This document shows positions 147 through 64,000 of a stretch of 64,000 nucleotides of DNA, one piece after another. A program made the position numbers and the translations under genes. This stretch comes from Cyanophora paradoxa CCMP329 (taxonomy: Eukaryota; Plantae; Glaucophyta), in assembly GCA_004431415.1 (NCBI GenBank), contig QPMI01000139.1, positions 1 through 64,000 on the forward strand, written 5' to 3'. The notes under the pieces are model-generated. The model did no database searches and was not told where the DNA came from. It saw only the letters and a program-made list of their open reading frames with translations. How positions within the stretch are numbered: the first letter of the stretch is position 1; the number at the start of each line of letters is the position of its first letter.

Positions 147-3100
147 ATGTGGCGCTCTTTGGGTCCCGGGCCTCTAAAACGGCTCTACAAGTTCCTGTTC
201 AAGCGCCTCATCGGTCGCTTCCTTAAGAACCCGCTCGACATCCGGCAGCTCGACGTGCAGCTCCGCGCGGGCGTCGTTGAGCTGCACAACCTTGAGATAA
301 GAGAGGATGTGCGCTTTCTCGCCCAGCGCTCTCTTTCAGGCTCAACGACGGCAGGTTGTCAACGACATCGTCGGAGTATCCGCGCTGACCGTCAGCAGCG
401 TGCGGCTGGCCAAGGCAGAGCTGCGCATTCCCTGGCGCACGTTCCTGCAGAGCGGAGTGGAGTTCATTCTAAAGGGAATTGAAGTCGTTGTCGAGCCGTC
501 CGGTTCGGGGGCCGCGGTTGTGCGGTTGCGCGTGAAGCGGCGTCTGATGGCGCCTCCAGATGCCGCTCGGCGAGATTCGGGCGGTGCGGGGGCCGCAAGC
601 GCCTGCGCGGCGGAGGCGTCGGCGGGGGAGGAAGCGGCGCGGGGTGCGGAGGCGGCGGAGGAGCTGGAGTCGGACGTGGAGGGGCTGCAGGTGCTGGCGC
701 GGCTCGTGGAGCGGGTCCTCTCGAGCGTGCGCGTGACCGTCCTCGACCTCTCCGTCCGCCTCGAGCTCCGCGCCGCCCCGGCCCCGACCGCCCTCGCCCT
801 CGTCCTCCCCTGGGCCACCCTCGCCCCGCTCCACCCCGAGCAGCCGCCCCCCCCGCCGGCTCCTGGTGGCGCTGGCGCGGGGCCGGGGGCCGAGGAGACG
901 CGCGCGGCGGGGAGGCAGCTGCGCTTCGGGGGCCTGCGGCTCCACGTCGGGGAGCTGCGCGGCCGCCGGCGGGGGAGCTCCGAGGGCGAGGGCGAGACCG
1001 CGGGGAGGAGGAAGGGAGCCCCGCTGGCCGCCCCGCCCGACCCGCCACGAGCTCCCGCTCCTTGCCGCCGCCGGCTCCGACCCGCCCGCCGCCCTCGCCG
1101 CCGCCGCCCTCGCCGCGGGGAGCGCGGGGAGGGCCGGCGGACAGCGTGACGTGGCGGCGGCTGGCGCCAGCGGCGGACGGGCGCAGCGGTCGAGATCGAC
1201 GCCCGCATCGCCGCAATCCACGTGCGGCCCACCCGCCACCGGCCGCCCGCCGCGCCCTCACCCGCCCGACAGGCCCGCCTCTCCCCGCGGCAGCTCGAGC
1301 AGCTCCGTGCCCTCGCCGCCGCTGTCTCCGAAGCCGCCGCCGCCGCGCGGCCGACGCCGCGGCCAGCGACGGCGGAGGGCGGGGCGGGGGAGGGCGGGCG
1401 GGTGTGGGTGACGGCGTCCGGGGCGGAGGTGCTGGCGCTGGGGGAGGGCGGGGAGGGGCCGGAGGGGGCGCTGGTGGAGGTGCTGCGGCACTCGGTGGGA
1501 GACCTCTCCGCTGCGGAACTCCTCTGCGAGGCCGCCGGCGAGGCCGCCCCGGGGGCCCCGCACCCCGACCCCGACTTCGACGAGGAGGAGGGGGAGCTGG
1601 AGGGGGAGGAGGGCGCGGGCGGGGAGGAGGCGGAGGAGGAGTCACTGGCGGCGTCGCTGCACGGGCTCGAGGGGCGCCCGGCGGGCCCGTCGGGCGCGCC
1701 TGCGCGGCCCTCAGGCGGGCCCGGCGCCCCGGCGGCGCCTCGTGGGGCGCGCCTGCGCCTGGGGGGCTCTCCCTCGCCCTCCTCACCGACTCCCTCTCCG
1801 ATGGGCGCGCTTGCGACTCCGCCCCGCCCGCGCCGCGCCGCGCCGCTGACGGCCGGCCGGCAGGTGCTCGGCGCACGCCTTCCCGCCCCTCATGTCCGAG
1901 CACGCCGCCCTTCTTACGACCTCCTGCTCGATCCTGTCCGCCCCGCCCCGCCCCGCCCGCCGCCCCGCCGTGTCGTGACGCGAGGCTCGGGGCGCAGGTA
2001 CCGGGGGGAGGGCCCCGGGGCGCCCCTGGTGGAGGCGAGCGTGGCGCGCCTCGCGGCCGCTGAGTTCCTTTTCCGCGGCGCGCCCGCCCGCCCGTCTAAC
2101 CCGCCGGCCCCGGCGGCCGCGCTGACGGGCGCCGCAGGGCCGAGGCGCCCGTCGCCGACCGCGCCATCGACCGCGCCCTCGCCGCCGCCCGCCGCGCCGC
2201 CGCCGCCCACGCCGCCGCCGCCTCCGGCGCGCCCCGCCCCGCCGGCGCCGGCGGCGGCGGCGGGCCCGGGCGGGAGGCTCCAGCGGGGGAGGAGGAGGAC
2301 TGGGACGCCTTCGGCCCGCCCGGCGACCCGAGGCGCGCCCGCCCCGCCCGCGCCACTCCCGCCCCACGCGTGCGTGACGGGGCGCGCAGCCTCTTCCACC
2401 GCATCCCGCTCCTCTCGTTCGGGGGGCCGCCGGGGACGAGCCGGGGCCGTGGGGCGGAGGCGCGGGCGCACGTGCGGGTGCGGGTGGAGGTGCGGGAGGG
2501 AGCGGGCGGGGCGCTGGAGGCGGCGGGGGCGGAGGTGCAGCTCGAGGCCGCCACCCTCCAGCTCCTCCCCTCCACCCCGGACCGCCTCGCCCCCTTCCTC
2601 CGCCCCGCCCCGGCCCCCGCCCCAGCCACCCCCCGCCCCGCCTCCTCTGCCCCGTGCGCCCGCACCGCACCGCCCGCACCCTCCTCCCGCGCGCTGAGCG
2701 GCGCGGCAGGCCCCTTCTCCCGCCCCGCAGCCGGCGGCCCCGCTGCGGGTGGCCGTCACCGCACCCTCCCTGCACGTGCGCCTGCGGTTCCCGCGCCCGC
2801 GGCCCCCGCCGGCAGCTTCTGCCCCTCCGGGTGCGCGCCGACCACGCCTTCTCGCGCGGCGCGCCGGGCCGACCGACGGGCCGGGCAGGCCGGAGCTGCC
2901 GCGGCGGGAGCTGGTGTCCGTGCACCTGACGGGCCCCGCGGGGAGCCTCGAGCTGCCGCGCGGGCGGGGAGCGCCGCCGCGCCCCTGCGCCTCGCCCTCA
3001 CCTGCGCCGCCCTAAAGGCCGCCCTCGACGCCCGCCCCGCCGTCCGCACCCCACCCTCCGCCGCCCGCCCTTGTCACCCCGCCGCTGAGCGCGTGCGCAG

Positions 3101-6100
3101 TGCCGGTGACCTTCCTCGAGGGGGGGCCCTGCTCGTTCCCGGGCCCCGCCCTGCTGCCCGCCTCGAGCTCACCCTCCGGCCCCGGCCCCGGTGGGGCGGG
3201 GCGGCGGCGGCGGCTGGGGAGGAGACGGCGGGGGAGCGGGAGCGGACGGCGTCGCGGGGCTCGCGGGGCTCGCGGGGCTCCCGCGCGGGGCCGCCCCTCG
3301 CCCGCCCCGGGCCGGGGCCGGGCCGGGCGGGGGCGGAGGCGGGGGCGACGCCTTCTCGGAGGACGAGGCGGCCGGCGCCGCCTTCCGCGAGGCCGCCCTC
3401 GCCGCCGCCGTGCGCCCCGCCCCGCCCCTCGCCCGAGCCCGGCCGAGGGGCGCCGCAGGGCGCCGGCTGGCGGGTCGAGGTGCCTGCGTGGCGCGCGACG
3501 CTCGCCAAGGCCGACTACGACCTCCTCGCCGCCCTCCTCGCCTCCCTCGCCCCGACGCCCCGCGCCCGCCCCCAGCCCCTCCACGCCCCTCCCGGCCCCG
3601 CCCCCTCCCCGGCGCCCCTCTGCCTCGGCCTCCCGGCGGCGGCCGCGGAGGAGGAGGCGGCGGCGGCGCGGGCCGGGCGGCGGTGCCGCGCTCGCCGCGC
3701 TCGGCGCGCTCGTCGTGCCGCTCGCCCTCCCCGGCGCCCTCCGCCGCCTCCTCGGCCGCCTTCCCCTCCCGCCCTCCTCCCGCTCCTCCTCGCCCTCCTC
3801 CGAGGGCCCTCCCTACCCGCCACCCCCGCGCCCCGCGGGGCGCACGGGGCGGCCTCCCATTGACCTCGCCTCCCTCCCCGCCGCCTCCGAGCTCCGCTGC
3901 GGCGCCCCTCCTCCCCATCCGCCCCCGCCTCCGCCGCCGCCCCCGCCGCCGCCCTCGGCGGCCCCTGCCTGGTCCTCTCCTCGGGAGGGCCGCTGCACGC
4001 TCCTCGGGGGCCCCGCGGCGCCCGCCGTGCTGGAGCTCTCGCTGCGGGGCGCGTGGGCGCTGGCGGCGGCGCGCCCGTGCGGGCGCCCGCTCTCGTACCT
4101 CCACGCCGCCGCCGACGAGGCCGCCCTCGAGGAGGCCCCCGCCGCCCCGGGGGCCCCACCGAGCCCCTCTGCGGGCGCGCCCCCTGGTGCCTCGCGGGGG
4201 CCGCCCCGGGAGCGCCCGCCGATGCTCGCGGCGACGCTGGTGGCGTGCGGCGCGGGGCCGGAGGAGGGCCCGCGCGACGTCGCCTGCACCCTCGCCCTCC
4301 ACAACGCCGCCCTCCGCCACCGCCCCGAGTCCGCCTGGCTCCCCGCCCTCACCGCCTTCTTCTCCCCGCCCGACCCCGCCCCGCCCCGCCCGCCGCGGGC
4401 CCCGCCGGAGCGCGCCGGGGCGGTGCGGACGCTGGTGCGGCTGCATGACTCGTGCCTCGAGTGGGGCGTCCCGGCGGGGCCCCCGGGCTCCCGCGGGGGC
4501 TGCGGCGGCGCTGGTGGCGGGGAGCTGCGGGCGCGGCTGCGCGGCGGGTCGCGGCGCTGGCGCCTCGCCGTGCGCGACGCCGCGCTGCACCTCCTCGACG
4601 AGGCGGCGCCGGCCCTCGCCCGCGGCGCCGGGCCCGCCCCCGCCGCCACCCCCGCCGACGCCCTCGAGGCCGCCGGTTTCGCCCGCGTCGCCGAGGCGGA
4701 CGGGCTGCGGCTGCGGGCGGCGGCGCGGGCCTCGCGGCGCGGCTGCGGGCGCTGCGGCTCGCGACGGCGCCGGACTCGCTCGCCCTCCTCGCCGCCCTCG
4801 CCGACCCTTCGCCCGCGACTTCCTCCCGGCCCCGCACCCGCCCCGCCCCGCCCGCGCCCCGCGGGGCCCACGCCCCGCCCGCCCCGCCCCGCCCTCCTCC
4901 GGCCTCGGCGGCCTTGCGGGGGCCGGCGGCGCGGCGGGGCGCGGCGGCGGCGGCTCGCCCCTCGCCGGCATCGACGAGTGCGCCTTCCGGCCGCCCCCGC
5001 CCCAGTCGCGCCCGGCGCCGCCGCCGCCGCCGCCCCGAGCGGGCCCTCGGCGGCGGCCGAGCTGCCCGGGCGGTCTGCGGCGGCGCCCTCGTCATAGCCG
5101 ACTACGTGCGGGACCCCGCGCGCCGCCCCGGGGCCCCCGCCGGCGCCCTCGCCGGGGGTCTGGGCGGGGGCGAGGGCGGGGTGCGGCCCGGGGGAGCTGG
5201 AGGAGGACCTGGAGCCGCTGCTGGGGCGGGGCGCGCCCGACTCGGCGGCCTGCCCCGCCGCCGCCTCCTTCCTGGGGCCCGGGCCCGCGGCCGAGCTTCT
5301 CGTCGAAGCGGCCTCCGAGGGGGGCGGGGACGGGGAGGAGGGGGACCTGGAGGACGGGGAGGGGAGCAGCGGGGCCGAGCACGGCGGGCGGTTGTACGGC
5401 CCCGCCGAGGAGGAGGAGGAGGATGCGGGGAGCGTCTCCAGCGGGGCCTCGAGCGCCGCCTCGGGCTCGAGCGACTACGATCAGTTCGAGGACGCCGCCG
5501 AGTGGCAGGCCCCCGCCCCGGGCCCCAGCCCGGGCGCCTCGCCGCGGGAGGGCGGGGCGGGGGGGCGCGGGGCGGGGCGGGAGGCGGAGCAGCGGGCGGT
5601 GTGGACGGCGCCCGAGGTGGGCGTCCGGGGCCTCCCCATCGTCCCCGACCACCTCGCCGCCCCGCCGCCGGGCCCCGGGGCCCCGCCGCCCCGGCCCCGC
5701 CCCCGCGGACCGCCCGGCGTCGCCGGGGGCGGGGTCCGGGGCCGGCGTGGCGGGTGACGCTGCGCGTGGACCGCGCCTCGTGGGCCCTCTTCGGCGGCTC
5801 CGACTTCGCCCCGCGAGCCCGCCCGGCCCCGCCCGCCCCGCCTCCCGCCCGGGCTCGGGCCCGCGGGGTCCGCCCCTGGCCGGCGCGGGGGCCGGCGGGA
5901 GCGCGGGGCGAGCCCCGGGCGGCGGCGTCGGGGGCACCCTCGGGCTCCTCCTGGCCCCGCCCTCCCTCCTCTCCCGCTCCCCGCCTCCCCGCCCCTCTCC
6001 GCCTCCCCGCATCCCTCCCGGCCGCCTCCCCTTCCGCCCCCCTCCGCCCTCGCCGCCGCCCTTTCCCGCGCCTCCCCGTCTGGTCCGCCGGCGCCGGCGC

Positions 6101-54398: not shown

Positions 54399-56282
54399 CT
54401 AGTCGGTGAACGTAATGGGGCGGGGGCCGCTGGAGGAGGGGGGGCTTGCGGGCCTAGAGGAGGGCGTCTGCGCGGCGAAGTCGCTGAAGAGGGTGGCGCC
54501 GAGGGCGCGGACCACGGAGGGCGGGGCGGAGATGAGGGCGGGCCGCTCCGCCTCCTCGTGGCAGGTGGCCTCGCCGAAGGCGGGGGGCGGCTGCGAGAAG
54601 GCGACGACGGCGTGCGGCTCGTGCGTCGGCGTCTGCGTGCCCCGCGAGACCCGCTCCACGCTCCGCACGGGCGTCGAGGGCCCGTCCGGCGTGTACGGCA
54701 CCGGAGCGCTCGTCGGGAGGGACGCCGCCACGTGCTGCGACGGGTCCGACGCCGCCGTCGGCGAGAGCGGCGGCGGTGGCGGCGAGACCGCCACGTCGCC
54801 GCCTGCCGCGGCCGCCGGCGGCGTGCTGGGCCTGGACCCCGAGCCGCCGTGGCCGTGTGCGTGGCCGTGCGCGTGGCCGTGCCCTGCGCGCCGCTCGGGA
54901 CGGCAGGCGGGGGGCGCGCCGGCGGGGCGCACCGTGGTGCCCGTGGCCGTGCCCGTGCCCGTGGTGCCCGTGCCCTGCGAGCCGCTCCGGTCGCCGCGAG
55001 GTGCACTGCGCTGCGACGGGACGCACCGTGGTGGTGGCCGTGCGTGGCGGGGTGCTGCGGGGGGGAGTGCGAGCGCGGCGGGGGCGGGTGCAGGAGCTTG
55101 TGGGCCTCCTTCAGCACGTAGTCCCACTGGAAGGCCGGGCCCGGGTCGTTCTTCTCCGCCTGGATGTGGTAGTGGCCCAGCACGCCCTTGAACGCCGCGA
55201 GCTCGGCGTCGGGAAGCTTCCGCGGGAGCGGCTTCCCGCTCGCGGCGTCGCGCGGGCACTCTAGCCGGATCTGAGGCAGGATCGCCGAGAGCGCCGCCGT
55301 GAGCCGGATGAGCGCGTTGTACTGCGCGCAGGGCCCGGCGGTGAGATGCGGCGCAATCGCCGGGAAAATGCAGCGACGGCGAGGACCTGCTGCTGCGTGT
55401 AATCGTACTGCCGGTACTTGCGCCCCTGCAGTTCGTCCACGATCATGTGCGGTCGCACGGGATGCCCGATGAAGTTCTTCGTCTTGATGCCCCCGCCCCG
55501 CGCCTCGGGCGGCACCACGATCCGCGTCCGGCTTCCCTCGCGCTTGTACCAGCGATCGAACTTGTCCTTCTCGTCCTCTAAGTACGCTGACGAAAACGAA
55601 GAGGGCAGATTAGTGGGTAGTCTGTAAAGCGACAGCAGGTGAGGGCTGTGGGCGCACCTCCGACGTTGGCAATCTCGATTCCGACGGATCGATCGTTGGA
55701 GATGGTAGCATGCCAGCCGCGCTCCTTCAGATCTAACGTCTGATAGATGGTGCCATCAAGATCCAATAGGAAGTGGCAGCTCAACCCTCGCCGGTCCTGC
55801 AGGACCTGCAGGCGAATTGGATCGGCCGCGAGCAGGCAGCGAGCGGCGGAGACCGCGGGGAACCTCGAAGCAGCGCTGGCTGAGGCCACAAGCGTCGCAG
55901 TGAATGACGAACTGATCCACGACGCGCCGCAGCTGCTCCAAGGTCCAGCCCCCGCCGCGAACCTGTTCGACCTCGGCGGCCGAAAGCTTGGGGCTGCGGC
56001 GCATGCCGTAACGGTTCGGAGTTTTAAGCTCCCGCGATATACTGTCCCACTCCGAGCTCTCCAGCGGCCCGAAGCTGAGATGAGGGCGCTCAGGGCGCTT
56101 TCGAGCGCGCGAGATGCGGTCCACTGGGGGTCGCACCGGCGCTCCACGCGATATGCATCGTAGCCGCCCGGATCCATGAAGGTGTAGACGCGCACGCCCC
56201 CGCCCAAGCGGAAGAGCTGGCCGCACACAACGATCTCATCGCCGTGCCTCGGCACCGGCTGCCCAGGACGATCGTCCGCCAT
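54399..56282 (-). CDS. N-acetylmuramoyl-L-alanine amidase (Amidase_2) with low-complexity His/Pro-rich tail
   Basis: QFVIHCD, LSCHFLLDLDGTIYQTLDLKERGWHATISNDRSVGIEIAN, QYNALIRL, VLGHYHIQAEKNDPGPAFQW. Short host-type introns. Confidence 0.9.
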
Positions 56283-56843: not shown

Positions 56844-57750
56844 TTAGAAGCCCTGGAAGGCCTTCTTCGCCTGGCCGCCAGTCGAGCCCGCCTTCGGGAT
56901 GACCTTCAGGACATTGAAGCGGACGGTCTTCGACAGGGGCCGGCACTGGCCGACGATCACGGTGTCACCGGGGCTGCGAAAGACATAAAGGTTACTTCCT
57001 TTCGACGGTCATCCAGTAGGGCAAGGGCGGGTCGCGGGCTAGACGGAGCAGGTAGGAGTGCGCGGCAGGCGAAACGCAGAGCATGCGGGCGCACTTGACG
57101 ATGAACGCCGGAGAGCAGTGCGCGGGGAAGTTCTTGTGGCGCTTCTCATAACGGTTGTACTTCGGGATGAAGTGCATGTAGTCGCGGCGCACGACCAGGG
57201 TGCGCTTCATCTTGGTCGACTGCACGACGCCCTGGAGGATACGGCCGCGGATGCTGACATTGCCAGTGAACGGGCACTTCTTGTCGATGTAAGAGCCTGC
57301 GCACACAAGCCCGCAGGTCAGCGGAAGCTTCTTAGGTCGGCGATCGATGGCTCTGTTGCGCTGGTAAGACGGCATCGCTGCTCGGGCGAGCGGAGGGGCG
57401 AGCCGCATAGAAGAGCTTCGACCGCAAACTAGACTGGAGCTGCACCCGATGGCGCCTTCTGTTCGCCGGCGGCTACCTCGCCCGCTGCTGGCTCGAGCGC
57501 GAGCGGCCGCCGGCTCCCGCAGACGCGTCCGCTCCGCGATCGCGCCGTCCGGTCTAGCTTCTAAGCTACTGCGAAGCGCACCCTCGATCGCCTCGCGCGG
57601 AGTCTTGAAGCCGAGGCCGATGTTGCGGTAGTAGCGCGGGACCTTGCCGCTCGGGCCGCCCTTCTTGGCCAGAAGGCGCTTGGAGCCAATGAAGATGGCG
57701 TCCTGCTTCTGGAAGGCCCTCTCGACCTGCTGGACTTCGGCCGTCGACAT
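56844..57750 (-). CDS. RPS11: 40S ribosomal protein S11 (uS17), 3 coding exons
   Basis: [70 protein letters not shown]. Confidence 0.98.
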
Positions 57751-57930
57751 TTTCCCCTGCGCAGCCGCAAGCGGCGCCAAAAGGTGCACAATGAGCACAA
57801 AATCTCGAGTCCCAAAGCGGGAAGCGCCTCTGGTGGCTATATCGGCTGGCGTTCTTTGGCGGACGGACCTGTGTTACTGCCGGGTCCCGACCGCGTACGG
57901 GTACCGCTGTTCAAAAAAACTCGAACTTCG

Positions 57931-58795
57931 CATCGAACTACATCAAGCTCGGGCGCGCGCTTCCCCAGCGCAGGGAGGAGGCACTAGCTGCGCGCCTTCC
58001 CCGGCCTCCTTGCTCGCTCGCCCCCGCCCCGCAGCAACTCGTTCGACGAGCGTGTTGTTTTCCATGAGCTTTGCATGAGGGCGGCAAGAGGTGCGCTAAT
58101 TAGCTTTAGTTAGCGATGCTGTGTGCTAAACTGGCTGTCTCAACGTTCCCGCAGCTGGCGCCGGCCTTGCCTGACCGCTCGACCGATGATCAACAGCTCG
58201 CCGGTACTCGCCTACCTTCCAAGCGTGAGCTCTAGCTCTCGTGAGCATGAACTTAGCATTGAACTACATCAAGCTCGGGCGCGCGCTTCCCCACCACAGG
58301 GAGGAGGCACTAGCTGCGCGCCTTCGAATTCCCCCGGGGCATCGCGTCTTGCCTGCTCCCGGCCTCCCTGCTCGCTCGCCCCCGCCCGGCAGCAACTCGT
58401 CCGACGAGCGTGTTGTTCTCCATGAGCTTTGCATGAAAGCGGCAAGAGGTGCGCTAATTAGCTTTAGTTAGCGATGCTGTGTGCTAAACTGGCTGTCTCA
58501 ACGTTCCCGCAGCTGGCGCCGGCCTTGCCTGACCGCTCGACCGATGACTAACAGCTCGCCGGTACTCGCCTACCTTCCAAGCGTGAGCTCTAGCTCTCGT
58601 GAGCATGAACTTAGCATTGAATTACATCAAGCTCGGGCGCGCACTTCCCCACCACAGGGAGGAGGCACTAGCTGCGCGCCTTCGAATTCCCCCGGGGCAT
58701 CGCGTCTTGCCTGCTCCCGGCCTCCCTGCTCGCTCGCCCCCGCCCGGCAGCAACTCGTCCGACGAGCTTATAGCTTATTGTTCTCCATGAGCTTT
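57931..58795. repeat. Tandem repeat, ~358-bp unit, ~2.4 copies
   Basis: GAACTACATCAAGCTCGGGCGCGC.. at ~57935, 58261 and 58619. Duplicate ORFs at 58123/58481 give a period of 358. Confidence 0.9.
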
Positions 58796-59315
58796 AGGAG
58801 TGGGCGCACCATTGGGCGCTCGCGCACGGCGCGGGCAATGTCCTGCAGATCTCTCGGAGCTAGCGCTGGAGGCGAACAAGCGGGAACATGAGCTCGAGGA
58901 GCGGGAGGCGAAGACACGCAAGCTGGCCCAGTGGCGCCGTACGTGAGCGGGAGGTGAAGACACGCAAGCTGGCGCCGTACGCGTCGCCTGCCTTCCTAGC
59001 GTTAGCTCTAGGGCCTAGCGCTAGCTCCAGGGCCGATATCATTATATAATTAATTTAAGTTTACTGTACATATGCATGTGCATGTAACTGTTTTACGCAG
59101 CCCATGTGTACGCAGCTCTCCGATGGTCACCGCGCGCGGCCGTCGTCTTGCAGTTGTCTTGTCGACTTCGATATCATGAAGCTTATATAGGAGGGCCATC
59201 AATGGGCCAAACGCGAAAAGGCAACTCCGAGAGCTCGAGACTCGGAAGTGACGCTTGGATTGCGGAGGTTCTTATAACCGCCGCAACAGCTGTGGGGGTA
59301 CCCCCTCCGAGGCTG

Positions 59316-59425
59316 GCGATCGCGGCGATCGCGACCCGATCGCGACCCTGGTGATCGCGACTTTCTCCCGATCGCGACCCTTTTCGATCGCGATTTCGAG
59401 ATCGGGGGCATTTCTGCGATCGCGA
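59316..59425. repeat. Cluster of seven GATCGCG motifs
   Basis: Copies at ~59318, 59327, 59338, 59353, 59370, 59386 and 59418. Confidence 0.9.
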
Positions 59426-59552
59426 GAAAGGAAAAATCGGAAAAGGCCGAAAAGTGCGTTTTTCACGCGTGAAATCGACCGAAAACGAGGGTTCGAATCC
59501 CGGGCCCGGATTTGGACTTGGGCAAAATCTCGGACTGAAATGGGAGAAAAAT

Positions 59553-59634
59553 GGGACCTGGGACTTGGGACTTGGGACTTGGGACTTGGGACTTGGGACT
59601 TGGGAAGAGTTGGAATCAGAGTCTGGACTCAAAA
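59553..59634 (+). repeat. (GGGACTT)n module 1
   Basis: GGGACCT + 6 x GGGACTT + GGGAAGAGTT tail. Confidence 0.95.
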
Positions 59635-59660
59635 CGGGGAAATTTTCGGAGGGGAGAAAA

Positions 59661-60131
59661 ATGTCAGGCAATCTCTATTACGATTTCCCCTTTGAGTTGC
59701 ATATGGCATTCGAGAGGCTGCGCGAGTTCTGGCGTTGGCACCTCACAGGACATGACATTCCCGACATAACACCAGAGCCCAACACACAGGGCGTGCTTGA
59801 AGTCATCCGTCAATATCCGCGTCGATTCAATGAATGGATCGAGTTCCACGCAACGAACCGTTTCCAGAGTCTCCCCGAGGCCATACGCGAAAATTTCGTG
59901 AGGCTGGTGGGACCAGGCTACGACAACCCTAACAATCATAGACCACGCCCAGCTGGCGTGACGCGCGAAGCTCGAGAAGACCGTAGACTTTTCCGCAGGG
60001 AATTGAGAGAGGATAGACGGAGGCTTTCAATGGGGCTCCCGCAGATTGTGAGGGGGTACAGCCCGGATTACGAGACTTACCAAGAATTGTACGGCTTCGA
60101 AAATCCCTTTGAGAGGGTACTACCAGGGTGA
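59661..60131 (+). CDS. Hypothetical protein, 156 aa (element-borne)
   Basis: Intronless ORF MSGNLYYDFPFEL.. with AAAAATG start context and a normal globular composition. Confidence 0.65.
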   Translation: MSGNLYYDFPFELHMAFERLREFWRWHLTGHDIPDITPEPNTQGVLEVIRQYPRRFNEWIEFHATNRFQSLPEAIRENFVRLVGPGYDNPNNHRPRPAGVTREAREDRRLFRRELREDRRRLSMGLPQIVRGYSPDYETYQELYGFENPFERVLPG

Positions 60132-60469
60132 GGGGCCAGGGGGGGCCCCTGAGGGTGTACCCCCCATCCGAGACTCGACCTTCGGCGGACGCACTCGGGC
60201 AATTTCCGTCAGGCCGGCTCCTTTTTCTGTCTTCGGTCCAACGCTAAATTTGGCTTTTTCAGGCCAGTTGGCAACGTTTTCCGTTGCGAACTAGCCCAGG
60301 AAAAAATTCGCCCACAAAACCGCGGTCCGCCGCCATTTTGCCTCACTCTTGAAACGGGTTCGCCGCCTTCTCTCAGCCCAAGGAAACCCTGCCTCTCCGA
60401 ATTTTCACAAGTCCGCCCTCACAGTCACCTCACGTTTTGCCTTTGCTGATTTCTTTTCCCTTTGCGCAG

Positions 60470-61536
60470 ATGTCGATTCCCGCTGAGCTTGCCGAGGACT
60501 TCGCCTTTGTCCAAGCAACGTGGGCTAACTCCGGTGGCACTCAAGGGGCTACCCCTGAGATGGAGCAGCGCGCCGACGCTCTGGGGTACATCTACAATTA
60601 TGCCATCTTACGCGCCACTGGCCCCGAAGTGCAACTTCTCCCCAAGTCCGCCTTCACGTCCAAGGCCAAGAAATCCAAGTCCAAGCAACCCAAGCCCGAG
60701 CCCCCGTCGACGTGCCCCCGTCCCCGGCTGGGTCAAGACCGCCAACGGCTGGGGCGACCCCAAGCTTTTCGCCGAGTCTGCTGCCGAGACGCTCGCCTGG
60801 GCCTACCCCCTCAAGTCTTCACGAATTACCCCCTCCGTCATCGTCGTCATCTGCCCCTCAGCCCGTCGCCGAGCCCGCCCCCGAGCCCGCCGATGACGCC
60901 AAGTCCGAGGCCTCTGACGTCGAGTCTGACATCAACGACTTCATCGACTTTGACGTGCCGATTCCATACGACTCTGAGTCGTCTTCTGACTCTGAAGGCG
61001 ACAACGAAAACCCGACTCGCAAGCGCCGCATTATCAAGACCAAGTCAATCGTCAAGAAGAAGTTCATGGAGACTACGTCATTCACCGACAACTCCGAGCG
61101 CGTCAAGGACCCCGCCAAGGCACACGAGAAGGACTTGAAGCTCGGCGCCGGCATTGCCCGTTCTCGCGTGACGTCACACTACAGCGAGCGCCTGACTCAG
61201 CACGTCAAGACCATTGAGAAGCGCGTCCTCTGCAACGAGCTCCGCAAGGAGTTGGAGCGCAAGCGGCGCCACGAGCGCCTTGTCCAGTACCAGATCAACA
61301 AGGCGCGGATCGCCGAGCGCAAGCAGAAGGAGGCGGCCGAGCTCAAGGCGCGCATCGAGGCTCAGCAGCAGCGCGAGGCAGAGGCGGCAGCGGCCTTGGC
61401 GGCGCAGCGCGAGCGCGAGCGGCAGGACTTGGTGCAGGCAGCGCAGTCCCTTCCCCGCATTCCCCTTAAGTCGGCGCCCGAGGGCCTCATTGAGTTGGTT
61501 TCCGATGACGATGACTCTGACTTTGAGATGCTGTAA
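60470..61536 (+). CDS. Hypothetical protein with acidic tract, basic NLS-like segment and coiled coil (two apparent frameshifts)
   Basis: MSIPAELAEDFAF.. (frame 60437) continues into DDAKSEASDVESD..RKRRIIK..ELRKELERKRR..DDDDSDFEML* (frame 60712). Confidence 0.65.
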
Positions 61537-61607
61537 ATAGTATTGCGTCATTCCATTGTACATACTTGTAAAAATTGGCCGACTATTCAGTTACGACTTG
61601 GCGCGAT

Positions 61608-61725
61608 CCTGGGACTTGGGACTTGGACTTGGGACTTGGGACTTGGGACTTGGGACTTGGGAAGAGTTAGACTCAGGGTCTGGGCCCAGAATCTCTCTGG
61701 ATCTGAGAGTTTGCCGCGCCAAGTC
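61608..61725 (+). repeat. (GGGACTT)n module 2
   Basis: CCT + 7 units + GGGAAGAGTTAGACTCAGGGTCTGGGCCCAGA..CAAGTC. Confidence 0.95.
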
Positions 61726-61951
61726 CCTAACCACCGGGCAGACATGTAGAGGGGTACGGAAATCTGCATATGACGTTTCTGGTGACATTCCAGGTGAGAT
61801 TTCAAGCGAGGTAGAGTCTGAACTGGTGTACGACTTGTAGCATGATACTGGACATGAAAGCTCACGAGAGTATGCAACCGAAAACGGATGTGAAGAGGGG
61901 TAGGAGTTTTCGTGTGAGATGTCGAGAGAAGGAGGGTACGAGATGGGATAC

Positions 61952-62021
61952 GAGTAAAAAGACTACGAGTAAAAAAGACTACGAGTAAAAAAGAGTATGA
62001 GGAGTGGTAGGAGTAAAAAAG
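61952..62021 (+). repeat. GAGTAAAAAAGACTAC-type short tandem repeat
   Basis: Three tandem copies plus one spaced GAGTAAAAAAG. Confidence 0.85.
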
Positions 62022-62040
62022 TCGGTAGAAAAACTCACCT

Positions 62041-62176
62041 GACTTGTCTGACAAATTTCTGATCCTGGAGAAAGTCTGGGCCGGGACCTGGGTTTCAACT
62101 CTTCCCAAGTCCCAAGTCCCAAGTCCAAGTCCCAAGTCCCAAGTCCCAAGTCCCAAGTCCAAGTCCAAGTCCCAGG
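62041..62176 (-). repeat. (GGGACTT)n module 3, inverted relative to modules 1 and 2
   Basis: About 10 AAGTCC(C) units preceded by AACTCTTCCC and the reverse complement of the conserved tail. Confidence 0.95.
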
Positions 62177-62197
62177 TTTTTCTGAACCTAGGGCAAA

Positions 62198-62514
62198 ATG
62201 GCCCTGCTCCGGTGCACCGACTCGCAAGACGTCGCCTACAACGTCCTGGTCAACTCGGACGTACCCCGAGTGCCTTGGAGTTTCCCTGGAGAGTGGACAG
62301 GGACAGGGTGAGCAAGACGTTTGGAGGGCGCAAGCACTACCTCTCCCAGCTGATCCTCGGGAAGTCGCCACGTGGACGCTACGTGGAACACATCAACGGC
62401 AACCCGCTGGACTACAGGAGGGAGAACCTGCGCTGGGCATCAATGTCGGAGATTCGCAAGAAGAGGAGGGGTACGCCAATTTACAGGAGAAGAGCGAGGA
62501 GATTCGGGAGATGA
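62198..62514 (+). CDS. Small phage-type HNH endonuclease-like protein (one frameshift near 62270)
   Basis: YLSQLILG..YVEHINGNPLDYRRENLRWAS. ATG in GCAAAATG context. Confidence 0.75.
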
Positions 62515-62550
62515 TGGAGGCGACACAGGTGCTAATGCAGCTTAGCCAGT

Positions 62551-63363
62551 CTAGACGCTAGTGGTGTGAATCTTGGTGTCGTACTCGCGACCGACCGTTT
62601 CCCAGGCCACGTAAACTTCGGCTCCGGCGCCTGGCGCTGTCGAGTTGGTAGTCGCAGTCGTGTAGTCCGCCTCTGCCTCAATTAGTTCGGCCATGAGGGT
62701 AGAGCCCACGACCATTCCAGAGGTAGGCATTCCGGCGATGTTGTTGTACAATTTGAAAGTGAATTTCGTGAAGAGGAGCCGGGGCCAGACCTGGGTACGG
62801 GGATTCGAGGCGCCGTATGAATAATCGGTACCCGAGGCGCCGCCCGTGGTGGCATTCGTCATCATCTCCTTTGCGGTCATCTTCCAGAGGTTGTACATCT
62901 CAAAGGGAACGGCCTGCGTGGTCTTGTGTGTGGCATCGATGAGGGCGCCATCTAAATGCGTTTTGATGTTCGGATTCGCACCATTCCCGAATTTGCGAGT
63001 GAGGGCGGTGTTAGCGGTGAACTTGAGTTCGAGCACGCGAATGGCGGGCCGATCAGGCACAGAGGGCTCTATCTTTTTCAGGAGGCCCGAGAGCCAGAGC
63101 GCCTCCGCCTCATCCGCGCTCACGCCCGAGTCGATGTCAAAGTACACGTACACGGAGCAGGAGGCGGGATTCTCGAAATCGTTGGAGGTGACGCGCAACA
63201 TGACGGGATTCTGGACCCTCACGGTGAGCGGGGTGGCGTAGTTTCCGTCCCACTCCACCTTGTCCGTCCCTGCGTTGGCCACGTTCCCAGCGTTGCCGTA
63301 GAAATCGGGGACGATCGAGCCGGCAGACACGGTCTTCACGATGGTGGCCGAGGTGGTCGGCAT
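62551..63363 (-). CDS. Hypothetical 270-aa beta-rich protein, possibly a virion structural protein (paralog A)
   Basis: Intact intronless ORF, Thr/Asn/Gly-rich, GCAAAATG start. Colinear similarity to the upstream ORF. Confidence 0.75.
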   Translation of the reverse strand: MPTTSATIVKTVSAGSIVPDFYGNAGNVANAGTDKVEWDGNYATPLTVRVQNPVMLRVTSNDFENPASCSVYVYFDIDSGVSADEAEALWLSGLLKKIEPSVPDRPAIRVLELKFTANTALTRKFGNGANPNIKTHLDGALIDATHKTTQAVPFEMYNLWKMTAKEMMTNATTGGASGTDYSYGASNPRTQVWPRLLFTKFTFKLYNNIAGMPTSGMVVGSTLMAELIEAEADYTTATTNSTAPGAGAEVYVAWETVGREYDTKIHTTSV

Positions 63364-63386
63364 TTTGCGACCTCAAATGAGAAAGA

Positions 63387-64000
63387 TTATCCGTGAAAGA
63401 GGGTGATGTCGCCACCGATGTTCATGACGCGGGCCCCAGGCACAGAGTCAGCGTCGGTGCCGTACGCGTAGGAAATCGAGCACTCACGCAGCTCCGCGCA
63501 GAGGCTGGCGCCCGTGCTGAAGTGGGGCTGGTCGGCGGCGTAGGAGAGGGGGAAGACCTGGAACCTGAAAAAGGTGAAGGGGAAGCGGGGTAGAGTCGAG
63601 CCGCGTGGGTTGCCGCCCGTGTAGAGGGCCCCAGGGTCGCGGGACTTGGATTGAATTTCGTGAAGAGCACGTCGCCCTTGAGCGTACCCCTCATCTGGTA
63701 AGTTCCCGTACCCGGAAGATTCGAAGAACTGGGGTACCGGTTCACGGTGGGGCCGTACCCCGTCTCCCTGAACTTGACCTCGAGACAGCGCAAGACGTTG
63801 GCAGTGGCCGTGGCAGGTGCCACCTTTTTCACGAGTCCTGATTCGTGCAGCAGCTCGATAACCTCTGCGCTGAGGCTCAGAGGGTCGAAGAAGAGCTGGT
63901 AGGAATAAATCTTGGGCGTGGCGTAGGCGTTCTGAACGACCTGAATCACGACGGGATTCTGCAGAAAGACGTCGACGTAACTGCCGGAGGGTATGCGTGC
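63387..64000 (-). CDS. Paralog B of the 270-aa protein (5' truncated by the window; one frameshift near 63660)
   Basis: LQNPVVIQV..SGLVKKVAP..RCLEVKF, then in the shifted frame YTGGNPRGSTLPRFPFTFFRFQVF..GASLCAELRECSISY..ITLFHG*. Confidence 0.7.
   Translation of the reverse strand, partial: THTLRQLRRRLSAESRRDSGRSERLRHAQDLFLPALLRPSEPQRRGYRAAARIRTREKGGTCHGHCQRLALSRGQVQGDGVRPHREPVPQFFESSGYGNLPDEGYAQGRRALHEIQSKSRDPGALYTGGNPRGSTLPRFPFTFFRFQVFPLSYAADQPHFSTGASLCAELRECSISYAYGTDADSVPGARVMNIGGDITLFHG

What the first reader, a model, noticed from the sequence alone, without database searches (positions are those of the whole stretch)
59553..62176. Three telomere-like (GGGACTT)n modules with a conserved unique tail
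Seen: each module is CCT-(GGGACTT)6-10-GGGAAGAGTT followed by a related ~25-60 bp tail (..CAGRGTCTGG.CYCARA..; module 3 is more diverged). They sit between genes: one just upstream of ORF 59661, one after ORF 61536, and one inverted just before the HNH ATG. The G3 runs are G-quadruplex-capable. The shared tail shows these are a dispersed module, not microsatellite slippage. Inference: analogous to baculovirus hr origins/enhancers or herpesvirus telomere-like repeats.
Basis: partly seen in the sequence, partly recalled or inferred. Interest (0 to 1): 0.75.

Follow-up and report, generated by a model that had tools for sequence, protein, structure and literature searches.

The report
G-rich repeat cassettes in algal provirus
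Three copies of a short G-rich repeat with a shared tail sit between genes of a likely viral element that a freshwater alga carries in dozens of copies and transcribes; they differ from the telomere repeat known in a related alga and likely serve as promoter cassettes for the host's transcription machinery.

Summary
The three modules are real: 6, 7 and 10 units, the same 10-nt junction, related tails (17/25, 15/25, 12/25 identity; shuffle p 5e-5 to 0.009), and no array in the other 59 kb. They lie at one end of a lower-GC element of Cyanophora paradoxa whose ORF2 occurs on 29 contigs. The element is transcribed and spliced: a 59-nt intron before ORF2 is removed in runs of two studies. Read along the G-rich strand, module 1 leads to an ATG and modules 2 and 3 to the element's only two CAGGTGAG donor-like motifs. 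Best reading (0.42): duplicated promoter/leader cassettes; no transcription start is mapped. The herpesvirus-telomere analogy is not supported (not TTAGGG, internal, interstitial site); the hr analogy fits only loosely (no palindrome). The closest sequence kin are bacterial G-quadruplex heptamer repeats (Xanthomonas, Nostoc), which lack a shared tail. A better origin candidate lies 240 bp to the left (hairpins plus GATCGCGA repeats). The scan noted telomere-like arrays before on another copy of what seems to be this element (e1-10416734). New variant of a known kind; interest 0.4.

The parts
59553..59660 (+). Module 1: GGGACCT + 6 x GGGACTT, junction GGGAAGAGTT (59602-59611), 49-nt tail/leader ending at the ORF1 ATG
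   Evidence: array+junction+tail also in short-read contigs of DNA run X1 and run X17 (loose ends at 59613)
61608..61730 (+). Module 2: 7 units, junction 61659-61668, tail; flanked by an 11-nt inverted repeat (61595 and 61717)
62039..62176 (-). Module 3: 10 units, junction 62106-62097, 58-nt tail ending at a CAG/GTGAG motif; inverted to module 2 with 370 nt between the arms
61791..61798 (+). CAGGTGAG donor-like motif 125 nt after the module 2 junction; a splice from 61794 to the acceptor-like site at 62191 would put an ATG at 61770 in frame with the HNH ATG (predicted only)
62034..62041 (-). CAGGTGAG donor-like motif 58 nt after the module 3 junction; T-rich acceptor-like sites would give a 60- or 76-nt intron; no long ORF follows (predicted only)
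59661..60131 (+). ORF1, 156 aa, AAAATG start context, no family and no homologue found
   Evidence: covered by contigs of runs X15 and X17
60411..60469 (+). 59-nt GT-AG intron in the leader of ORF2, spliced out
   Evidence: (X17 record 21; X15 records 12-14) read
60470..61536 (+). ORF2, about 356 aa in other copies (frameshifted in the window by single-base deletions), variable N-terminus, acidic middle, coiled-coil-like end; homologues on 29 contigs
62198..62514 (+). HNH_3 endonuclease gene, frameshifted in the window, phage-like
   Evidence: Pfam PF13392 E 2.5e-7; phage HNH 41-51% identity, E 3e-6; frames
62551..63363 (-). 270-aa orphan gene, multicopy; weak hints of a T7 gp2.5/Enc34-type ssDNA-binding fold
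63387..64000 (-). Paralogue of the 270-aa gene (226 aa in other copies), cut by the window end; same weak fold hint
59260..59315 (.). Two adjacent hairpins near the presumed left end of the element; candidate origin or end signal
   Evidence: DNA fold z -3.35, 1 of 200 shuffles (region picked by eye)
59316..59426 (.). Cluster of six GATCGCGA repeats, two as tandem 11-mers; iteron-like
60149..60170 (+). Second copy of a CTG-GGG-GTACCCC motif also found at 59290; lies upstream of the ORF2 leader
   Evidence: chance 0.24 with 2 mismatches; pattern built from these two sites

Best explanation
The three modules are copies of one polar cassette (heptamer array, fixed junction, short tail) inside a multicopy, host-transcribed element that is likely an endogenous DNA virus, and they likely act as promoter-proximal cassettes in which the array would bind a transcription factor or open the DNA and the tail would form the start of the transcript. 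Shown: the cassette was duplicated as a unit; no array lies in the 59 kb of host DNA here; module 1 is kept in other copies; the element's ORF2 is transcribed and spliced. Inferred: module 1 drives ORF1 (and perhaps ORF2 through a long leader); module 2 drives the HNH gene through a leader exon spliced over module 3; module 3 drives an antisense or non-coding transcript back towards ORF2, so that the facing pair 2/3 could work as a mutual on/off control. G-quadruplex or i-motif folding of the arrays is likely in vitro but need not be the working principle.
For: Polarity: always array, junction, tail. Downstream on the G-rich strand: module 1 reaches an ATG after 49 nt in the AAAATG context shared with the HNH gene, the 270-aa gene, spliced ORF2 and host RPS11; the only two CAGGTGAG in the 4.8-kb element part (both strands) lie 125 and 58 nt after modules 2 and 3, in the same sense as the arrays; chance about 0.002 per 130 nt, motif chosen after seeing it. 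The predicted module 2 splice is in frame with HNH (1 in 3 by chance) and ends 6 nt before its ATG, like the shown ORF2 intron that ends at its ATG. Host-type splicing of the element is shown in runs X15 and X17 of two studies, so it needs host-readable promoters. Contigs of X17 cover ORF1 and run into module 1. The monomer GGACTTG is enriched in the element outside the arrays (9 against 0.6 expected; 2 in 59 kb of host), as expected of a binding word.
Against: No transcription start is mapped; contigs cannot show starts or strand. The X17 contig holds 18 nt of array, so a start inside the tail is unlikely if it is RNA. The one intron shown belongs to ORF2, which has no module directly upstream (its leader reaches at least 60168, next to a different motif at 60149), and the 270-aa gene has none either. 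My predicted joint from the ORF1 end to ORF2 was not seen. ORF1 has no homologue or gene model (0 of 522 candidates). Module 3 points at no long ORF. GTGAG is not an enriched donor in the host DNA here; the shown intron starts GTCCGC and the RPS11 introns GTGCGC, so CAGGTGAG may simply be part of the copied cassette. Modules 2 and 3 fit the bacterial placement rule (just after a stop on the sense strand, just before a start on the antisense strand) equally well (PMC4692102 abstract). The region between modules 2 and 3 was not tested with reads.
Confidence: 0.42

Rival explanations
1. The arrays are replication signals: binding sites for an element-encoded initiator or ssDNA-binding protein (iteron- or hr-origin-like), used when the element excises and replicates.
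For: An earlier unchecked note reports HUH Rep genes on another copy (e1-10416734). Iterons are short direct and inverted repeats bound by Rep (PMC10653810 passages). Two neighbouring paralogues give weak matches to T7/Enc34 SSBs (Z 4.5-4.6 over 109-110 residues; E 0.16). All modules lie within 3 kb of the presumed element end.
Against: Iterons sit at a fixed short distance from the nick hairpin; the tails fold no better than shuffles (z 0.3 to 1.5), while the good hairpins at 59260-59315 have their own repeat cluster (GATCGCGA) beside them. Three dispersed copies with gene-facing tails are not needed for one origin. No Rep gene lies in the window; the fold models are low-confidence (pLDDT 36 and 44).
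Confidence: 0.2
2. The arrays are bacterial-type G4 heptamer repeats that mark gene boundaries (pause, termination, RNA-end protection or insulation) or merely ride along; the tail is shared only because a short segment was duplicated.
For: The unit differs by one base from GGGACTG, tested as a K+ quadruplex, and Xanthomonas/Nostoc repeats are intergenic, often in convergent inverted pairs, near gene ends (PMC4692102 sections 10 and 12). The same unit forms arrays between terminase-like and portal-like ORFs of a phage contig (L001) and in a bacterial genome (G001). The element carries a phage-like HNH gene.
Against: The bacterial arrays seen share no tail beyond a chance 8-10 nt in one case; here junction and tail are kept in all three modules and in other copies. 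Bacterial repeats are spread over the chromosome by the hundred; none was seen in 59 kb of host DNA.
Confidence: 0.18
3. The modules are recombination sites: modules 2 and 3 would invert the 370-nt spacer in front of HNH, and modules 1 and 2 would excise the ORF1-ORF2 block.
For: Modules 2 and 3 form an 88-nt, 80% inverted repeat; modules 1 and 2 are direct repeats 2057 nt apart. ORF2 N-termini vary strongly between copies.
Against: Tails are only 48-68% identical, poor for a recombinase site; ORF2 and the 270-aa gene keep their neighbourhood on 12 of 29 ORF2 contigs (the rest could not be paired from the names at hand); no strand-switch joint among the 7 listed (which did not cover the spacer).
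Confidence: 0.1
4. The arrays mimic the host telomere and serve integration into or protection by telomeric chromatin, as in HHV-6 or Marek's disease virus (features recalled).
For: G3 periodic repeat with telomere-like strand bias; the telomere of C. paradoxa itself is not reported in what I read (0 occurrences of 'telomer' in PMC6704402).
Against: Glaucocystis telomerase makes TTAGGG. The arrays are 49-67 nt, internal, in both orientations; the copy lies next to RPS11 in gene-rich DNA.
Confidence: 0.05

Closest known systems
G-rich heptamer repeats of Xanthomonas (GGGAATC) and Nostoc (GGGGA(C/T)T) (PMC4692102: abstract, sections 10 and 12, passages)
   Same: 7-nt unit with a G3 tract, four or more units, intergenic, close to gene ends, convergent inverted pairs; near-identical unit folds as G4 in K+
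   Different: Here three copies share a fixed junction and tail, lie in a mobile element of a eukaryote, and are absent from 59 kb of host DNA; origin from bacteria is not shown
Baculovirus homologous regions (hrs) (abstract of PMC4535591 in a search listing; rest recalled)
   Same: Several related repeat blocks dispersed between genes of a nuclear DNA virus; candidate enhancer/origin
   Different: hr units are about 64 bp with a 24-bp imperfect palindrome; here a 7-nt non-palindromic unit with a polar tail; no activity measured
Herpesvirus telomeric repeats (HHV-6, Marek's disease virus; recalled)
   Same: G3 tandem repeats inside a viral genome
   Different: Not the known glaucophyte telomere unit; not terminal; interstitial insertion
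Iterons of rolling-circle replicons (gemini-, nanoviruses; PMC10653810 passages)
   Same: Short direct and inverted repeats in non-coding DNA
   Different: No adjacent nick hairpin; the GATCGCGA cluster beside the hairpins at 59260-59315 fits this picture better
Endogenous DNA viruses of protists: PLV-type loci in C. paradoxa (366 MCP hits, PMC10120064 supplement rows) and latent punuivirus genes with host-type introns (bioRxiv 10.64898/2026.10.09.758095 passages)
   Same: Multicopy, lower-GC insert with HNH and orphan genes, host-spliced transcript
   Different: No capsid, ATPase, polymerase or integrase in the window, so the virus group is open; such repeat cassettes were not mentioned in the passages read

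Membership tests
Herpesvirus-type telomeric repeats | Unit identical to the host telomere repeat (recalled) | tested here: inconclusive
   Differs from TTAGGG of Glaucocystis; C. paradoxa telomere not found in print and no genome held
Herpesvirus-type telomeric repeats | At genome termini, integration into host telomeres (recalled) | tested here: not met
   Arrays internal, between genes; copy 1.8 kb from RPS11
Baculovirus hrs | Several related repeat blocks dispersed between genes | tested here: met
Baculovirus hrs | Imperfect palindrome of about 24-30 bp in each unit | tested here: not met
   7-nt unit is not palindromic; tails fold no better than shuffles, z 0.3-1.5
Baculovirus hrs | Enhancer and origin activity | not testable with these tools
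   needs reporter and replication assays
Bacterial G4 heptamer repeats (Xanthomonas/Nostoc type) | G3-N4 heptamer, four or more units, intergenic, near gene ends, inverted pairs | tested here: met
Bacterial G4 heptamer repeats (Xanthomonas/Nostoc type) | Scattered over the host chromosome in about 90-190 copies without a common flank | tested here: not met
   Shared junction and tail; none in 59 kb of host DNA; rest of the genome not seen
Rolling-circle iterons | Fixed short distance to a nick-site stem-loop | tested here: not met
   Nearest strong hairpin ends about 240 nt before array 1; none found at arrays 2 and 3
Rolling-circle iterons | Sequence-specific Rep binding | not testable with these tools
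   no Rep in the window
MITE (modules 2+3 as terminal inverted repeats) | Near-identical TIRs and a target-site duplication | tested here: not met
   80% over 88 nt, mostly array; outer flanks unrelated
Endogenous DNA virus (PLV or Mriyaviricetes-like) | Multicopy insert with GC shift | tested here: met
   57-58% GC against 60-85% in host bins; ORF2 on 29 contigs, either gene on 48
Endogenous DNA virus (PLV or Mriyaviricetes-like) | Capsid, packaging ATPase, replicase/HUH, integrase | not testable with these tools
   element runs off the window; no genome held; HUH Rep only from unchecked note e1-10416734
T7 gp2.5/Enc34-type SSB (270-aa gene and paralogue) | OB-fold structural match | tested here: inconclusive
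   pLDDT 36 and 44; best Z 4.5-4.6, E 0.008-0.16; Atlas features pointed instead to CRESS capsids at 0.83-0.86, below its trust level

The most novel reading that the evidence does not exclude
A eukaryotic endogenous DNA virus has turned a bacterial-type G-quadruplex heptamer repeat into a portable promoter cassette, and its own pair of OB-fold proteins binds the G-rich strand, telomere-protein fashion, so that facing cassettes switch the provirus between silence and activity.
Probability: 0.08. Interest if true: 0.75.

Novelty: new variant of a known kind. Interest (0 to 1): 0.4.

Why it matters
How integrated DNA viruses of protists are switched on by a host without a helper's promoter is largely unknown. 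A short, duplicated, sequence-defined cassette in a cultured alga with dozens of copies gives a direct handle: map 5' ends, delete the array, pull down the binder. If the link to bacterial G4 heptamers holds, it would also offer a first function for a repeat class whose role is still open. If the arrays are only passengers, the finding is a useful marker of this element family and little more.

Tried and rejected
No whole genome is held, so arrays could not be mapped genome-wide or at chromosome ends. Array+junction pattern: 0 loci in viral contigs, 0 in metagenome contigs, 1 in genome contigs, a bacterial heptamer tract without the tail; that genome holds no copy of the element (7 short repeat-only matches). 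Junction+tail pattern: 0 in viral contigs. Four-unit array: 1 phage-like contig, no tail. Relatives of the 270-aa family: none confirmed among 17 viral and 104 metagenome candidates. Rfam: 0 matches in 57500-64000. Pfam/PHROGs: nothing for ORF1, ORF2 or the paired genes. ORF1: 0 of 522 candidates (the query carried 69 extra upstream residues). No RNA holder is on record as RNA; six guessed ones held 26-34% of the words, three of which I laid. My idea of an ORF1-ORF2 splice from 60128 was dropped: no such joint and it would be out of frame. Capsid reading of the paired genes: not supported by two low-confidence models; no listed match passes significance either way. Conserved RNA structure in the tails: rejected. 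Literature: ten searches (top listings only) showed no description of these arrays in Cyanophora; supplements of PMC10120064 and PMC12220804 were searched only for the organism name, two files were cut when stored, and preprint supplements were not seen. A recalled likeness of the unit to a nanovirus iteron was not confirmed by the search and is not used.
Full report
Observation. Module 1 has six perfect units after GGGACCT, module 2 seven units, module 3 ten units on the minus strand; each ends in GGGAAGAGTT, which occurs only these three times in 64 kb. All 17 double-unit matches in the window fall in them, against 0.01 expected. The tails are related beyond chance (17/25, 15/25 and 12/25 over the first 25 nt; 29/60 for modules 2 and 3), so the unit of duplication is array plus junction plus tail. 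G4 potential is real on paper but unremarkable here: the host part has 181 canonical motifs.

Setting. The first 57 kb is high-GC eukaryotic DNA with an intron-containing RPS11 gene and an amidase gene. From about 59.2 kb GC falls to 57-58%. The 270-aa gene at 62551-63363 has near-identical relatives labelled Cyanophora paradoxa; ORF2 has 29 clusters of relatives, 29 of 29 bearing contig-style names of the same source, on 29 different contigs. On 12 of those 29 a 270-aa family gene lies within three gene numbers, and the two families together mark 48 contigs (names typed). So this is one end of a dispersed multicopy element. An HNH gene of phage type and orphan genes fit a viral origin; C. paradoxa is known to hold many endogenous viruses (366 capsid hits, PMC10120064 supplement rows). 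No hallmark gene lies in the window, so the group is open. I could test only part of it: models of the two paralogues are poor (pLDDT 36 and 44), and their longest matches are T7/Enc34 ssDNA-binding proteins below significance, while the Atlas pointed weakly to CRESS capsids.

Other copies and expression. Contigs of one DNA run and three RNA-guessed runs were laid on 59612-61600. In the DNA run a contig enters the region with array and junction attached, so module 1 is not peculiar to this copy; its depth (about 1600-2300) is of the order of the ORF contigs (2100-3700), a weak hint that the tail is not amplified beyond the element. Single-base insertions in those contigs explain the ORF2 frameshifts of the window. 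In X17 one contig runs 60168-60410, has 181 other letters, and resumes at 60675; the variant ORF2 proteins P0062, P0063, P0069 and P0070 have exactly 60 codons plus one base before that point, so the contig goes straight from 60410 to the ATG. In X15 one contig ends at 60410, one spans 60381-60499 (30+59+30) and one starts 181 letters before 60675. This is the pattern of a spliced and an unspliced path around a 59-nt GT-AG intron at 60411-60469 (my note says 60 nt; one search corrects it). The element is therefore transcribed and spliced in runs of two studies. The third run, X20, covered only parts of ORF2 (7 of 30 bins). X17 also has a contig (depth 4.8) running from the array into ORF1; X15 starts only at about 59700. 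Contigs show neither start nor strand.

What the modules point at. Along the G-rich strand, module 1 reaches the ORF1 ATG after 49 nt, in the AAAATG context also seen at HNH, the 270-aa gene, spliced ORF2 and RPS11. Modules 2 and 3 reach the element part's only two CAGGTGAG motifs after 125 and 58 nt (about 0.002 each by chance, post hoc). A splice from module 2's motif to the acceptor-like site at 62191 would join a short upstream frame to HNH in phase; module 3's motif is followed by T-rich acceptor-like repeats that would give a 60- or 76-nt intron but no long ORF. Against this: GTGAG is not an enriched donor in the host DNA here, the shown intron and the RPS11 introns use other donors, ORF1 has no database support, and ORF2, the one gene with a shown intron, has no module directly upstream. 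The monomer is enriched elsewhere in the element (9 against 0.6), which fits a binding word.

Mechanism. Most likely (0.42) the cassette is a promoter-proximal unit for host RNA polymerase II: the array would give tandem sites for one factor, or an easily opened G4/i-motif patch, and the tail would be the conserved leader. Duplication, conservation of module 1 and host-type expression are shown; the promoter role, its direction and the binder are inferred. Rivals are replication signals (0.2), bacterial-type boundary or passenger repeats (0.18), recombination sites (0.1) and telomere mimicry (0.05). For an origin there is a better candidate: two hairpins at 59260-59315 (z -3.35, picked by eye) followed by six GATCGCGA repeats, which resembles the stem-loop plus iteron layout of rolling-circle replicons (PMC10653810 passages).

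Comparison with what is known. Telomere: the one glaucophyte measured has TTAGGG (PMC3622300 passages); C. paradoxa was not found in print (PMC6704402 passages). hrs: dispersed like them, but without the palindrome (PMC4535591 abstract in listing). The closest sequence kin are the G4 heptamer repeats of Xanthomonas and Nostoc (PMC4692102 abstract, sections 10 and 12, passages): a unit one base away folds in K+, and these repeats sit just after stops on the sense strand, just before starts on the antisense strand, and in convergent pairs, as modules 2 and 3 do. I found the same unit in a phage-like contig and a bacterial genome, without the tail. Whether this is descent or convergence is not known. 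Host-type introns in latent genes of an algal endogenous giant virus are described (bioRxiv 10.64898/2026.10.09.758095 passages). Also seen as passages only: PMC8502044, PMC12220804, PMC7805220, PMC11253617. Herpesvirus features are recalled, from no call.

Verdict. Real, non-random and, as far as this window shows, confined to the element; not telomeric on present evidence; function likely regulatory but unproven. Repeat-based cis-elements are common in nuclear DNA viruses, so this is a new variant of a known kind. It is cheap to test in a cultured alga and touches two open questions (activation of protist proviruses, role of G4 heptamer repeats). Interest 0.4.

Noticed in passing
window 59260-59426: Two adjacent hairpins (first with an AT-rich loop, second containing a GGGGGTACCCCC palindrome) followed by six GATCGCGA repeats; looks like a rolling-circle origin or end signal of the element.
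   Followed up: partly
window 59290-59309 and 60149-60170: A second dispersed motif (CTG-GGG-GTACCCC-TCCGAG) brackets the repeat cluster, module 1 and ORF1; the second copy lies just before the ORF2 leader. GGGGTAC is enriched in the element (11 against 1.1 expected).
   Followed up: partly
window 59542-59553 and 59652-59663: A 12-nt direct repeat ending in ATG flanks module 1 like a target-site duplication (10 of 300 shuffles of the 4.8 kb give any such repeat); the first ATG opens a 72-aa frame through the array.
   Followed up: partly
window 60470-60700: The ORF2 N-terminus is hypervariable between copies while the rest is 80-100% identical; the long ORF2 contigs of all three RNA-guessed runs are of a variant class, not the window's class, a weak hint that only some copies are expressed.
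   Followed up: partly
window 59654-60078: A low-depth DNA contig (about 128) skips or replaces 423 nt covering most of ORF1, so a minor class of copies keeps the module 1 tail with another downstream sequence.
   Followed up: no
window 61880-62040: Strongly strand-biased spacer (118 of 160 purines on +) with 16-nt repeats between modules 2 and 3; reads as T-rich acceptor-like repeats on the minus strand.
   Followed up: partly
window 62551-64000: Two tandem paralogous orphan genes (40% identity over 68 aa) with divergent relatives in three unnamed environmental proteins; recurrent weak match to T7/Enc34 SSB.
   Followed up: partly
window 57923-58795: About 2.5 tandem copies of a 358-bp unit between the RPS11 start and the element.
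   Followed up: no
window 55578-56282: Intron-broken Amidase_2 (peptidoglycan amidase) gene in the host DNA (Pfam E 2.7e-12), fitting a glaucophyte plastid wall.
   Followed up: no
L001 2926-3064: Inverted pair of GGGACTT tracts between a terminase-like and a portal-like ORF of a phage-like contig; similar AGTCC-type tracts appear inside those ORFs (names from sequence look only).
   Followed up: partly
L002, L004, L007, L011 (G001): Many short GGGACTN heptamer tracts, often in facing pairs, in a Rhodospirillaceae genome: the repeat class extends beyond Xanthomonas and cyanobacteria.
   Followed up: partly
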